Shown here: positions 13,324-16,146 of the stretch, in pieces | How positions within the stretch are numbered: position 1 is the stretch's first letter | How the letters are laid out: the number at the start of each line of letters is the position of its first letter | NCBI GenBank assembly: GCA_018698675.1 | Contig: JABIPA010000059.1 | Coordinates: 15,784 to 79,783, forward strand | DNA length: 64,000 bases | DNA from: a bacterium | Lineage (GTDB): Bacteria; Margulisbacteria; Marinamargulisbacteria; JABIPA01 | Reading direction: 5' to 3' | Notes under the pieces: generated by a model | Seen by the model: only the letters and a program-made list of their open reading frames with translations | Told to the model about the DNA's origin: nothing | The model's database searches: none | Made by a program: the position numbers and the translations under genes

Positions 13324-16146
13324 CTATTGGTCTATTAGGTACTTTCTTAATATTCCAGAAGGAGTTTCGGACGACCCAACCCCAAATACGTTAGAATCTC
13401 CAAAAACTAAAAACACATCCTTAGCTCTTGAAACCGATACATTTAACAAGTGCTTGCTTCTGTCATAAAATTTACTTTCAGACTTATCTCTTATTCCATA
13501 AACACTAGAAAAAAGAACCAGTCTACGTTCGTCCCCCTGAAACGTGTGTACCGTTCCAACTGTTAAGCTTGGGAGGTTCGCCTTTTTAAGTTCTTGCTTA
13601 ATCAAATTTGCCTGTTTTAAGAATGGGGTGATGATTGCAACAGTTTCTAAAAGAGTGTCGTTATCATTTTTAGACTGTAATTTAGGATTTGATTCCCGAC
13701 CGTAAGTTACGATTTGTTGATAGTTTATTTTGAGCCAATTCGTAATTTTCATTGCTTCTCCAATATTACATCTACTGGATCCTATTTTTTTGGACGGAGA
13801 TTCGGAGTGAATGAAGCCCATAGAGGGCCAAGGTAATGTGGTTTTCGAAACGCCACGTAAAGGCTCAAGTATTTTTTTGTACACTAAATCATTGCAGTAG
13901 TTAATTATATTATTGTAACAACGCCTATGCTCAGTAAGATAAAGTCCACGTTGTAACTTATCGTATTGATGAACACTACACCTTCGTTGAGCGACCTTCA
14001 TGAGGTTTCCGCTACTCGCAAGCAATCCACTTTTAAGCCAAAAATCTTCATAAGTAAACTGGCCCGTTATTAAATTAGACAGTTTAAGATTAGCAATATC
14101 TACACTCGGTGGAATATTCCAGACAGGTTCGATTTGATCGGTATCCCCTACTATTAACGCGCGCTTGGCTAAGGCAAAACTTGCAGACGATACATCGGCT
14201 AAGGCTTGTCCTGATTCGTCGACAATTAGTAGGTCGATTTCATCGAATAATGGCATTTTTTTCCAAACGTCATCTTCTTTTACAAATGCCATGAAAAATG
14301 ATGGAACCATAAAAAAGGTAGAAACAAAACAAGGTGTTAGTTTTGCAAATCTAAGAAACTTTCTGCGTAATTTTGAAGGCGATTTTTTATCTTCATCATA
14401 CCCGAGTACAAACTGTTTTGTTTCAACTAACCATTTAGCTTCCCAATAATGGGTGGCTAATTTAAATAATTTAAAACGTAGTGTTTTATCACAAATATCA
14501 TTGATTTGATCTTCATATTTTTTACCATGGACCTCGTTTGGTTTGTGGATGGATATCCACGAGGTAAGTTTTTTCTTCGTTTTTACGTACTTTTCTTTAA
14601 AGGCTTTCGCATCTGCAATTTGGTTTTCATTGCTCCTAATGGCCGTTTCTTTTTCTAAAGAAGTAGATTTAAGTTGATTTAGATTTTTAAGGTTTGTATA
14701 TTTTTTCTCAAGCTCATCATGTATGAGTTGAAATTTTTTAAGGTATAAAAATCCATTTTTAATTTCCTTTTGAATTTTAAGCATATCTTTATGAATTATT
14801 TTTTTTGCATCCATAACATTTTTAATAGATTCCAAAGGCTTCCATTCTTTGAACTTATTTAAAAAGTAGGGCGTCGCTTTATCAATATATTCCGACGTTT
14901 GCAGGTTACTCATTACACCTTCATTATCGGGACTTAAATAACAATGTTTTGGTTTAGGCTTCGACTTCGCTTTTGTTTGAGAGCAAAGGTAAAGACCGTA
15001 TGACTTTAAGTCAGGAATCCATCTGCCTTGGATACTTGGATCACTTTCAGTTTCTTCAATTCGTGCAAAACTTTCTAAAATATTAGTAACTGCTTGATTG
15101 TTATTTGAAGCCGCTACAATTATGGGAGGGTCTGTTTCGTCCAACGCGGCTTGGGTCCATAAATTGGCGACTACCGACCTCAAAAGTGTCGTTTTCCCAG
15201 TCCCTGGTGGACCGTTTACTGCTAAAATTTCACCTTTCTTTTGGTTAAATAAATAATGCAGTGCATTCCGTTGATTTGAAGATAAAGGAAATTCATTTGT
15301 CATCTGCCCGACATGTTTAATTCCTGACGCTCGATTATGTTCAAGAGATTTAAAGGGACGAATAGATGCAGATGTAGGGGTAGCATAATTTTCGAATAAA
15401 TTATTGCCCGATTCGTTTTCTATAACTGCTTCTAACACAGAAATAATATTTCTCTTCGCTTCAATAATCGGTGGATCGATAAGTATTAAACCTTTCATCG
15501 ATTGTTCATAGCTTTCATTTACAGATAATTGTGAAAGATAATCAGGTGTTATTTTTTTAGGGTCGATGTCATGATCAATCGCTGCGGATAATAGTCCAAT
15601 TGCAAACGTCATTACCGAAACCCACGTTTGAATATTCTCATAAGGAGTTTGAGTTAAAAACGTATCAATATTTATAAGCTCCCCTATAGTTGGATTACTA
15701 CTTTCGTTTGGGGCTAACCATTCTCTAGGTATCCAAGGTGCTTTATCTGTAGGTAATAATTGTCCGTTCTTACTTAACGTCGCAATGATAACTAATGGCA
15801 GTAACACTCGTCTTTTTGAAAACGAAGGATTGATTCTTTCAAATTTAAGGACATCTACTCTTGGGAACACCACTATCTCAATTTGGTGAAGAGGTAATGT
15901 TTTTTTATCTTTGACTTGTTTCTCTTTGATTTCGAATAGTTGATTTGTAGTATGTTGGTCAACGACTCCACGGATAACATCTGACCCATTTACGGCAAAA
16001 CAATAGTCTTTCGATTGTTTATAGTCCGTCGCTATTCCAAGAGCTGGGAGTAAAATTGTGTCGTTTGGGCATGCTCGTTCGGAATCTAGTAATGATTGCC
16101 TGAAATAAGTTGCTAGCTGGACGGTGAAAGATTCGTTCGTGGTCAT
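13324..16146 (-). CDS. Upf1/DNA2-like superfamily I helicase with ~290-aa N-terminal extension (possible PD-(D/E)xK module)
   Basis: The Walker A is 'AVNGPPGTGKTTLLRSV' and motif Ia is 'IVAASNNNQAVTNILESF'. The Walker B/DExx is 'LIVDESGQA' and motif III is 'LIVGDTDQIEPV'. Motif V/VI is 'TVHTFQGDERRLVLFSSV'. The N-terminus contains 'GVVD(63)...LFE(72)IK(74)', a candidate PD-(D/E)xK pattern. Confidence 0.75.
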   Translation of the reverse strand: MTTNESFTVQLATYFRQSLLDSERACPNDTILLPALGIATDYKQSKDYCFAVNGSDVIRGVVDQHTTNQLFEIKEKQVKDKKTLPLHQIEIVVFPRVDVLKFERINPSFSKRRVLLPLVIIATLSKNGQLLPTDKAPWIPREWLAPNESSNPTIGELINIDTFLTQTPYENIQTWVSVMTFAIGLLSAAIDHDIDPKKITPDYLSQLSVNESYEQSMKGLILIDPPIIEAKRNIISVLEAVIENESGNNLFENYATPTSASIRPFKSLEHNRASGIKHVGQMTNEFPLSSNQRNALHYLFNQKKGEILAVNGPPGTGKTTLLRSVVANLWTQAALDETDPPIIVAASNNNQAVTNILESFARIEETESDPSIQGRWIPDLKSYGLYLCSQTKAKSKPKPKHCYLSPDNEGVMSNLQTSEYIDKATPYFLNKFKEWKPLESIKNVMDAKKIIHKDMLKIQKEIKNGFLYLKKFQLIHDELEKKYTNLKNLNQLKSTSLEKETAIRSNENQIADAKAFKEKYVKTKKKLTSWISIHKPNEVHGKKYEDQINDICDKTLRFKLFKLATHYWEAKWLVETKQFVLGYDEDKKSPSKLRRKFLRFAKLTPCFVSTFFMVPSFFMAFVKEDDVWKKMPLFDEIDLLIVDESGQALADVSSASFALAKRALIVGDTDQIEPVWNIPPSVDIANLKLSNLITGQFTYEDFWLKSGLLASSGNLMKVAQRRCSVHQYDKLQRGLYLTEHRRCYNNIINYCNDLVYKKILEPLRGVSKTTLPWPSMGFIHSESPSKKIGSSRCNIGEAMKITNWLKINYQQIVTYGRESNPKLQSKNDNDTLLETVAIITPFLKQANLIKQELKKANLPSLTVGTVHTFQGDERRLVLFSSVYGIRDKSESKFYDRSKHLLNVSVSRAKDVFLVFGDSNVFGVGSSETPSGILRKYLIDQ

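What the first reader, a model, noticed from the sequence alone, without database searches (positions are those of the whole stretch)
13324..16146. Nhi-like architecture: Upf1/DNA2-type SF1 helicase with N-terminal candidate PD-(D/E)xK nuclease
All SF1B helicase motifs are present: GPPGTGKT, DESGQ, VGDTDQ and VHTFQGDE. The first ~290 aa are not helicase. They contain hydrophobic-D (VVD63) followed 9 residues later by LFE72-I-K74, a plausible PD-(D/E)xK core (~15925..15960 nt). A single-polypeptide nuclease plus Upf1-like helicase is the architecture reported for Nhi-type anti-phage proteins. The gene sits directly beside the tRNA-Asp island in a block of hypotheticals, a typical defence-island context.
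Basis: inference. Interest (0 to 1): 0.65.

Follow-up and report, generated by a model that had tools for sequence, protein, structure and literature searches.

The report
Mokosh-type helicase lacking its nuclease
The gene encodes an intact Upf1-like helicase of the Mokosh type II (MkoC) anti-phage family that lacks the C-terminal PLD nuclease those systems need for defence, and its N-terminal domain is not a nuclease, so it is not Nhi-like.

Summary

The whole protein, N-domain included, matches the PADLOC MkoC model (E 2e-268), but only profile positions 5-965 of 1136. The missing tail is the PLD nuclease domain, which is present in E. coli YjhR and other long relatives. Published mutants show that domain is essential for Mokosh defence.

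This is not decay. Of the 80 related genomic loci kept, 62 are PLD-less, as are about half of the top 148 cluster representatives. They form deep clades with invariant helicase catalytic residues. They have no PLD gene nearby and no conserved neighbour, and they often sit beside RM, McrBC or toxin-antitoxin genes.

Best reading: a stand-alone, nuclease-free Mokosh-like helicase, probably a mobile defence gene. Its effector step is unknown. This is a new variant of a known kind, of moderate interest.

The parts
13324..16146 (-). Complete gene for a 940-aa MkoC-like (Mokosh type II family) SF1B helicase without a PLD domain
   Evidence: ORF list. PADLOC MkoC PDLC03924 E 2e-268, 892 bits. An identical protein is in public assemblies, named only 'AAA family ATPase [bacterium]'. 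Full-length model pLDDT 92.3, pTM 0.91.
15322..16146 (-). N-terminal domain (aa 1-~275), mixed alpha/beta, unknown function, shared with PLD-bearing MkoC proteins; not a recognisable nuclease
15925..15960 (-).
   Evidence: D63 49%, acidic at position 72 in 42%, K74 39% of 114 sequences. Residues 64-77 are helical in both models.
14896..15321 (-). RecA1 domain, first part (aa 276-417), with the conserved H278-x2-Q281-M282...Q292-R293 segment, motif I and motif Ia (IVAASNNNQAVTNIL)
   Evidence: Pfam AAA_11 288-371. Invariant columns H278, Q281, M282, Q292, R293, G312-T320, N355.
15190..15213 (-). Helicase motif I / Walker A, GPPGTGKT (aa 312-319)
   Evidence: Invariant in 103-114 homologues. K318 invariant in 75 wider relatives.
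14344..14895 (-). Long helical 'stalk' insertion in RecA1 (aa ~418-601; helices 444-483, 500-534, 544-581). About 80 aa shorter than in most clade members
   Evidence: Secondary structure of the full-length model. The gap shared only with P0002 is at alignment columns ~536-615.
14206..14220 (-). Helicase motif II / Walker B, DESGQ (aa 643-647)
   Evidence: D643, E644 and Q647 are invariant or nearly so in all 75 relatives, both PLD-bearing and PLD-less.
14134..14151 (-). Helicase motif III, VGDTDQ (aa 666-671)
   Evidence: D668 and Q671 invariant.
13327..14076 (-). RecA2 domain (aa ~691-940) with motif V VHTFQGDE (aa 866-873, nt 13528-13551) and motif VI VSVSRAKD (aa 903-910, nt 13417-13440). 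The protein ends 3 aa after homology with PLD-bearing relatives stops
   Evidence: Pfam AAA_12 733-918. BLASTP with E. coli YjhR: aa 776-937 align with YjhR 1-155, and YjhR then continues into PLDc_2 at 195-300. H867, Q870, E873 and R907 are invariant or nearly so.

Best explanation
The gene encodes a stand-alone, nuclease-free member of the Mokosh type II (MkoC) helicase family.

Shown:
- It has a family-specific N-terminal domain of unmatched fold, an intact Upf1-like SF1B motor with a long helical stalk inserted in RecA1, and no C-terminal PLD nuclease.
- No PLD gene lies in cis.
- It belongs to a large, deep, horizontally scattered clade with the same truncated architecture and fully conserved ATPase/helicase residues.
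- Clade members usually sit alone, and often lie among restriction-modification, McrBC and toxin-antitoxin genes.

Inferred:
- It is a mobile accessory (most likely anti-phage or anti-MGE) gene.
- It works as an ATP-driven 5'->3' translocase on single-stranded RNA, ssDNA or RNA/DNA intermediates of an invader, as SF1B Upf1-like enzymes do.
- The conserved N-domain acts as a substrate-binding or sensing module rather than a catalytic nuclease.
- Interference comes from the motor itself (stripping proteins, unwinding replication or transcription intermediates, as eukaryotic Upf1 or Mov10 do without a nuclease of their own) or from handing substrates to host nucleases.

The effector step is the unproven part.
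For: Family assignment:
- PADLOC MkoC E 2e-268. The N-domain alone matches profile positions 5-250, the middle 252-447 and the C-terminal part 543-965 of 1136.

The missing tail is the PLD domain:
- E. coli YjhR aligns with our last 160 aa, then carries PLDc_2.
- Long relatives P0130, P0136 and P0139 have PLDc_2 at the C-terminus.
- In 18 of 80 genomic loci the ORF continues 172-203 aa and contains HxK(x)4D.

PLD-less is a stable architecture:
- 62 of 80 loci stop 0-24 aa after the homology ends (one at 68 aa). 75 of the top 148 50%-identity representatives have tails of 35 aa or less, against 65 with tails of 150 aa or more.
- There are three deep PLD-less clades in the NJ tree.
- K318, D643, E644, Q647, D668, Q671, H867, Q870, E873 and R907 are invariant or nearly so in both groups.
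- The full-length model is compact and confident, pLDDT 92.3, pTM 0.91.

No partner:
- An HMM built from the PLD tails finds nothing within +-5 kb of PLD-less loci (one weak exception, L048) or anywhere in the 64-kb window.
- No neighbour family is shared beyond 6 closely related genomes.
- Most loci have no co-directional ORF within 120 bp.

Defence or MGE context:
- The gene sits between hsdS and hsdR, with Mrr and HipA nearby (L088), and next to hsdM (L004).
- Other loci have PIN/MazE, YoeB and SLFN_AlbA_2 (L003), BrnT/BrnA beside smpB, a prophage-like block, and adjacent McrBC, DNA methylase, HipA, UvrD-like and transposase genes.
- In the window it lies 1.3 kb from a tRNA-Asp islet carrying a PDC-S06/AAA_13 gene.

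Published data: Mokosh type II is a helicase followed by PLD, and helicase ATP-site mutants lose defence.
Against: - No PLD-less member has been tested for defence, as far as the held literature shows.
- In the tested Mokosh systems, PLD active-site mutations abolish defence. A nuclease-free relative may therefore not defend at all, or may defend by a different route.
- Some contexts are plainly metabolic (L089; L077 and L032 neighbours).
- In the window and its closest relative the gene occupies the same chromosomal slot (SirB ... 397-aa gene - SelO). GC content is not atypical, so recent mobility is not evident here.
- Substrate (RNA or DNA) and polarity are inferred from superfamily membership only.
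Confidence: 0.55

Rival explanations
1. Nhi-like single-polypeptide nuclease-helicase: the N-terminal ~290 aa form a PD-(D/E)xK nuclease that degrades phage DNA while the SF1 helicase feeds it.
For: The architecture (non-helicase N-domain plus SF1B motor) resembles Nhi superficially. The window clade has invariant D21, D98 and D161 in the N-domain.
Against: - D63, E72 and K74 are not conserved, and E72-K74 lies in a helix.
- D98 is Tyr/Leu/Val and D21 is Ala in many wider relatives, so there is no family-wide acidic cluster.
- No PADLOC Nhi hit at E<=0.01 for the whole protein or E<=1 for the N-domain. No Pfam NERD or other nuclease hit at E<=10.
- The same N-domain occurs in PLD-bearing MkoC, where the PLD site is the essential nuclease.
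Confidence: 0.04
2. The helicase is the sensor/motor half of a split system. Its nuclease (a PLD or another type) is encoded elsewhere in the genome, or a housekeeping RNase or DNase is recruited in trans.
For: Type I Mokosh already splits helicase and PLD into two genes. Eukaryotic Upf1 and MOV10L1 work with separate nucleases such as PLD6/Zucchini. The family's C-terminus is modular: PLD, TPR, DUF5710 or none.
Against: No PLD-like ORF lies within +-5 kb in 61 of 62 PLD-less loci or anywhere in the 64-kb window. There is no conserved neighbour of any kind. Defence systems are normally self-contained so that they can transfer horizontally.
Confidence: 0.15
3. A cellular (non-defence) RNA/DNA helicase. 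The PLD-less form is the ancestral housekeeping or stress helicase, and canonical Mokosh II arose from it by fusion with PLD.
For: PLD-less forms are at least as diverse as PLD-bearing ones. Some neighbourhoods are metabolic. Synteny is conserved between the window and its relative, and composition is not atypical.
Against: - Distribution is very patchy across phyla.
- Neighbourhoods vary between genomes.
- The gene is repeatedly embedded in RM operons, toxin-antitoxin clusters and MGE borders.
- The strongest database match is a defence model.
Confidence: 0.15
4. A decaying remnant of a Mokosh type II gene that recently lost its PLD end and is now non-functional.
For: E. coli yjhR shows that Mokosh II genes do decay into fragments. 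The window protein also has an ~80-aa deletion in the stalk.
Against: - The ORF is intact.
- All relatives in the clade end at the same position.
- Catalytic residues are invariant.
- The clade is deep, with 40-70% identity among members across classes.
- The model is compact and confident.
Confidence: 0.04

Closest known systems
Mokosh type II, MkoC (Millman et al. 2022; E. coli YjhR-type helicase-PLD fusion)
   Same: The N-terminal domain, Upf1-like SF1B core and stalk insertion are all homologous. PADLOC MkoC scores E 2e-268 over profile positions 5-965. BLASTP with the PLD-bearing P0130 covers aa 10-938. It is single-gene, with no conserved partner.
   Different: It lacks the C-terminal PLD nuclease (profile positions 966-1136). 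That domain is part of the published definition, and its active site is required for defence. The window protein also has a shorter stalk.
Mokosh type I, MkoA + MkoB
   Same: The helicase core is related: MkoA models score E 9e-27 and 9e-23, mainly over the C-terminal half.
   Different: There is no serine/threonine-kinase or NERD region, no separate PLD gene (MkoB) nearby, and the match covers the motor only.
Nhi / Nhi-like (nuclease-helicase immunity; PD-(D/E)xK / NERD nuclease + SF1 helicase)
   Same: An SF1 helicase fused to an extra N-terminal domain, in a family with defence members.
   Different: No Nhi HMM match. No NERD or PD-(D/E)xK domain by sequence or fold. The candidate catalytic residues are not conserved.
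Eukaryotic Upf1-like helicases (Upf1, IGHMBP2, MOV10/MOV10L1)
   Same: The same SF1B motor. The only PDB sequence hits are IGHMBP2 4b3f/4b3g, E 1e-8, and NCBIfam gives the IGHMBP2 family, E 1e-14. Like them it has no nuclease of its own. Published work links Mokosh with MOV10L1/PLD6.
   Different: The N-domain is unrelated (no CH or other known domain), the organism is bacterial, and similarity outside the RecA domains is very low.

Membership tests
Mokosh type II (MkoC) | Upf1-like (COG1112) SF1B helicase with an intact ATP site | tested here: met
   Pfam AAA_11 + AAA_12. Motifs I, II, III, V and VI are present and invariant. MkoC HMM E 2e-268.
Mokosh type II (MkoC) | Family-specific N-terminal region upstream of the helicase | tested here: met
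   Residues 8-289 alone match MkoC profile positions 5-250, E 3e-36, and align with the PLD-bearing P0130.
Mokosh type II (MkoC) | C-terminal PLD-family nuclease domain (HxK(x)4D) on the same polypeptide, required for defence | tested here: not met
   The protein ends 3 aa after homology with YjhR residue 155, whereas YjhR continues into PLDc_2 at 195-300. MkoC profile positions 966-1136 are uncovered. No Pfam PLD hit. No PLD-like ORF in the 64-kb window.
Mokosh type II (MkoC) | Confers phage resistance | not testable with these tools
   Needs plaque assays. No report on PLD-less members was found.
Mokosh type I (MkoA/MkoB) | Two genes: a helicase with an extra kinase region, plus a separate PLD nuclease | tested here: not met
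   Only the helicase core matches MkoA. No kinase domain. No PLD ORF nearby.
Nhi / Nhi-like | Match to Nhi family models | tested here: not met
   No PADLOC Nhi hit at E<=0.01 for the whole protein or E<=1 for its parts.
Nhi / Nhi-like | PD-(D/E)xK / NERD nuclease domain with conserved catalytic D, D/E and K | tested here: not met
SF1B Upf1-like helicases (general) | Two RecA domains with motifs I-VI and an insertion in RecA1 (1B/1C-like) | tested here: met
   See the motif rows above. The full-length model places three long helices (444-581) between motifs Ia and II.
SF1B Upf1-like helicases (general) | 5'->3' ATP-dependent translocation or unwinding on RNA or DNA | not testable with these tools
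   Requires biochemistry.

The most novel reading that the evidence does not exclude
PLD-less MkoC-like helicases, about half of the family's sequence diversity, are a distinct nuclease-free branch of Mokosh immunity. They would block phages or plasmids through the Upf1-like motor and the unmatched N-terminal domain alone, a bacterial counterpart of helicase-only antiviral factors such as Upf1 or MOV10. Alternatively, the N-domain could be a new kind of effector. A corollary is that HMM-based defence annotators probably file effector-less proteins under 'Mokosh type II'.
Probability: 0.35. Interest if true: 0.6.

Novelty: new variant of a known kind. Interest (0 to 1): 0.4.

Why it matters
Mokosh is one of the commoner recently described defence families and is discussed as a bacterial relative of the piRNA machinery (MOV10L1 + PLD6). 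Its mechanism is still unknown.

A large, conserved branch keeps the helicase and the N-domain but has no nuclease. This separates two questions: what the helicase and N-domain sense and do, and what the PLD does. It offers natural 'effector-less' proteins for testing them.

It is also a practical warning. A strong MkoC HMM hit does not guarantee a complete nuclease-helicase system, so censuses of 'Mokosh type II' may mix two architectures.

For this window, the result replaces an attractive but wrong annotation (Nhi-like nuclease-helicase) with a precise one.

Tried and rejected
- PD-(D/E)xK in the N-domain: rejected on conservation, secondary structure and fold searches.
- Sequence and profile searches of the N-domain against Pfam at E<=10 (only chance hits: SCAN 0.013, TraH 0.14) and against PDB sequences (AAR2 E 0.4): nothing usable.
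- The afdb50 fold library was unavailable, so AlphaFold DB neighbours of the N-domain were not examined.
- The downstream ankyrin-repeat gene (12004..13233) as a functional partner: rejected. It is absent from the syntenic locus of the 71%-identical relative and is not a conserved neighbour.
- The SirB-like and 173-aa upstream genes as partners: not conserved either.
- A full-length E. coli YjhR as reference: the two further loci examined (H10, H14), like K-12 itself, are truncated or IS-disrupted. PLD-bearing metagenomic and genomic relatives were used instead.
- A compositional island signal: none; GC is 33-37% throughout.
- Promoter and terminator scans: not above shuffled expectation.
- Rfam: only the tRNA.
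Full report
**Observation**

The window carries one uninterrupted ORF at 13324..16146 on the minus strand (940 aa, ATG start). The four quoted motifs are present: GPPGTGKT (aa 312-319), DESGQ (643-647), VGDTDQ (666-671) and VHTFQGDE (866-873). Pfam assigns AAA_11 (288-371) and AAA_12 (733-918), the pair typical of Upf1/DNA2-like SF1B helicases. The only PDB sequence hits are IGHMBP2 chains (E 1e-8). The first ~275 residues have no Pfam match, even at E<=10. The descriptive part of the finding is therefore correct.

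**Is the N-terminal domain a PD-(D/E)xK nuclease?**

No evidence supports this, and several tests go against it.

- Conservation. In an alignment of 114 homologues, D63 is Asp in 49% (Pro or Ser in many), position 72 is acidic in 42%, and K74 is Lys in 39%.
- Structure. An AlphaFold2 model of residues 1-300, built from that alignment, is confident (mean pLDDT 88.5, pTM 0.78). It places residues 64-77 in an alpha-helix, whereas the (D/E)xK element of that fold lies on a beta-strand. The full-length model gives the same secondary structure.
- Profile search. A profile of the N-domain alone (23 diverse sequences) finds nothing in PDB sequences.
- Wider family. Across 75 relatives, the only N-domain positions that stay essentially invariant are Y14, G60, R141, P146, D161 and W175. 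D98 is invariant only inside the window's clade and is Tyr/Leu/Val elsewhere. D21 is Ala in 13 relatives. There is no conserved acidic cluster of the kind a metal-dependent nuclease needs.

**Is it Nhi?**

PADLOC's models give no Nhi hit at E<=0.01 for the whole protein or at E<=1 for its three parts. Nhi-like systems are described as carrying a NERD / PD-(D/E)xK nuclease, and none is detectable here.

**What it is**

The whole protein matches PADLOC's MkoC model (Mokosh type II) at E 2e-268, 892 bits. Scanning the protein in three pieces gives these matches:

| Protein residues | MkoC profile positions (of 1136) |
|---|---|
| 8-289 | 5-250 |
| 291-489 | 252-447 |
| 505-939 | 543-965 |

So the N-domain is itself a Mokosh-family domain, and the last ~170 profile positions have no counterpart.

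That tail is the PLD nuclease.
- The E. coli K-12 yjhR pseudogene product, used in the literature as a fused Mokosh protein, has AAA_12 followed by PLDc_2 at residues 195-300.
- Our residues 776-937 align with YjhR 1-155 at 38% identity. Our protein then stops three residues later.
[quoted passage not shown] It also states that PLD active-site mutations abolish defence.

A defining feature of Mokosh type II is thus tested here and not met.

**Is the missing PLD an accident of this genome?**

No.

- The best 120 database homologues (40-71% identity, mostly ~1010 aa) carry only AAA_11/AAA_12 and end at the same position as our protein.
- A scan of one genome per species confirmed at least 562 relatives. 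Of the 80 best loci, 18 have ORFs that continue 172-203 aa and contain HxK(x)4D. The other 62 stop 0-24 aa after the end of homology (one at 68 aa).
- An exhaustive search of 1.84 billion cluster representatives gives 1015 hits at E<=1e-30. Among the top 148, 75 have C-terminal tails of 35 aa or less and 65 have tails of 150 aa or more.
- The long tails checked are PLDc_2 (P0130, P0136, P0139). A few relatives carry TPR repeats or DUF5710 instead.
- A neighbour-joining tree of the helicase part shows three deep PLD-less clades. One is mostly Proteobacteria and includes the window; the others are Bacillota and Bacteroidota. They are interleaved with PLD-bearing clades.
- The ATPase/helicase residues K318, D643, E644, Q647, D668, Q671, H867, Q870, E873 and R907 are invariant or nearly so in both classes.
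- The full-length model is compact and confident (pLDDT 92.3, pTM 0.91). It has a three-helix stalk (aa 444-581) inserted in RecA1.
- The window protein and its 71%-identical relative share an ~80-aa shortening of that stalk.

This is a stable architecture under selection, not a decaying gene.

**Is there a nuclease partner?**

- An HMM built from the 18 PLD tails finds no PLD-like ORF within +-5 kb of PLD-less loci (one weak exception, L048). It finds none anywhere in the 64-kb window.
- All-against-all comparison of 1416 flanking ORFs finds no neighbour family shared beyond six closely related genomes.
- Most PLD-less loci have no co-directional ORF within 120 bp on either side.
- In the window, the downstream ankyrin-repeat gene (12004..13233) is absent from the syntenic locus of the closest relative. 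There the order is SirB - YccF - AAA_14 - helicase - 397-aa gene - SelO. It is therefore not a partner.

**Context**

Neighbourhoods of clade members are heterogeneous but often defence- or MGE-related.

- L088: the gene sits between hsdS and hsdR of a type I RM operon, with Mrr and HipA nearby.
- L004: it is directly upstream of hsdM.
- L003: it lies among PIN/MazE, YoeB and SLFN_AlbA_2 genes.
- L091: it lies next to BrnT/BrnA and smpB.
- L090: it lies beside a prophage-like block.
- Other loci have adjacent McrBC, DNA methylase, HipA, UvrD-like helicase or transposase genes.
- Some neighbourhoods are metabolic.

In the window, the tRNA-Asp gene (19906..19983, minus strand) has its 3' half duplicated 2.47 kb away (17425-17477 versus 19898-19950, 87% identity). 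The pair brackets exactly one gene, a 758-aa AAA_13 protein that matches PADLOC candidate PDC-S06 (E 2.5e-202). The helicase lies outside that islet, 1.3 kb beyond it. GC content is uniform.

**Mechanism**

Shown: an intact SF1B motor, a conserved N-domain of unmatched fold shared with canonical MkoC, no nuclease domain in cis, and a solitary gene.

Inferred from what is established for Upf1-like SF1B helicases: ATP-driven 5'->3' translocation on single-stranded nucleic acid.

Inferred from distribution and context: an accessory, probably anti-phage or anti-MGE, role.

My preferred model is that the N-domain binds or senses a substrate and the motor itself interferes with invader RNA or replication intermediates. 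Alternatively, the motor delivers those substrates to host nucleases. The main caveat is that PLD catalysis is essential in the tested Mokosh systems and no PLD-less member has been tested. Rivals kept open are a nuclease supplied in trans and a non-defence cellular helicase. Rivals largely excluded are the Nhi-like nuclease-helicase and a decaying remnant.

**Novelty and verdict**

The family is known, and an HMM-based annotator would probably label this gene Mokosh type II (inference; I could not run those pipelines). The architecture without the effector nuclease is not what the literature describes as Mokosh II. I found no description of it in the held library. I rate it a new variant of a known kind, of moderate interest (0.4). 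Its nuclease and Nhi interpretation does not.

Noticed in passing
window 17425-19950 (repeats 17425-17477 and 19898-19950; gene 17520..19796 minus strand; tRNA-Asp 19906..19983 minus strand): A 53-nt direct repeat (87% identical) duplicates the 3' half of tRNA-Asp. The pair brackets exactly one gene, a 758-aa AAA_13 ATPase that matches PADLOC candidate system PDC-S06 (E 2.5e-202), with a weak PrrC-like C-terminal match. It looks like a minimal 2.5-kb tRNA-integrated defence islet with att-like ends and no integrase.
   Followed up: partly
window 12004..13233 (minus strand): A 409-aa protein with N-terminal ankyrin repeats (weak similarity to the Dot/Icm effector AnkG) lies between the helicase and the 397-aa gene. 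It is absent from the syntenic locus of the closest relative (L002/L008), so it is a lineage-specific insertion. It hints at a host-associated lifestyle for this low-GC organism.
   Followed up: partly
window 14647-14700 approx. (aa ~483-500 of the helicase); alignment A1 columns ~536-615: The window protein and its 71%-identical relative P0002 lack about 80 residues of the helical stalk that all other clade members have. The only low-confidence segment of the full-length model (aa 495-498) sits at this junction.
   Followed up: partly
proteins P0163, P0166 (TPR tails), P0128 (DUF5710 tail), found: The MkoC-like helicase chassis occurs with alternative C-terminal modules: PLD, nothing, TPR repeats or DUF5710. 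This suggests a swappable output or adaptor end.
   Followed up: partly
L088 7001-10072 (Zobellella sp., CP199259.1): A PLD-less clade member sits between hsdS and hsdR of a type I restriction-modification operon, with Mrr and HipA upstream. This is the same kind of slot in which the anticodon nuclease PrrC is classically found.
   Followed up: no
L001 7016-8032; L006; L007 (E. coli yjhR locus): E. coli yjhR is a remnant of a Mokosh type II gene (C-terminal helicase part plus PLD). DNA similar to it is present in 1730 of 5426 complete E. coli genomes. In the three loci examined it is N-terminally truncated or split by IS elements (ISEc52, ISEc23).
   Followed up: partly
window 16883..17404, 10712..11905, 7845..9149 (all minus strand): Three ORFs of 173, 397 and 434 aa have no Pfam or PADLOC match; the 173- and 397-aa ORFs also have no NCBIfam match (the 434-aa ORF was not scanned there). 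An unannotated 397-aa ORF occupies the corresponding position in the closest relative's locus, between the helicase and SelO; homology was not tested.
   Followed up: no
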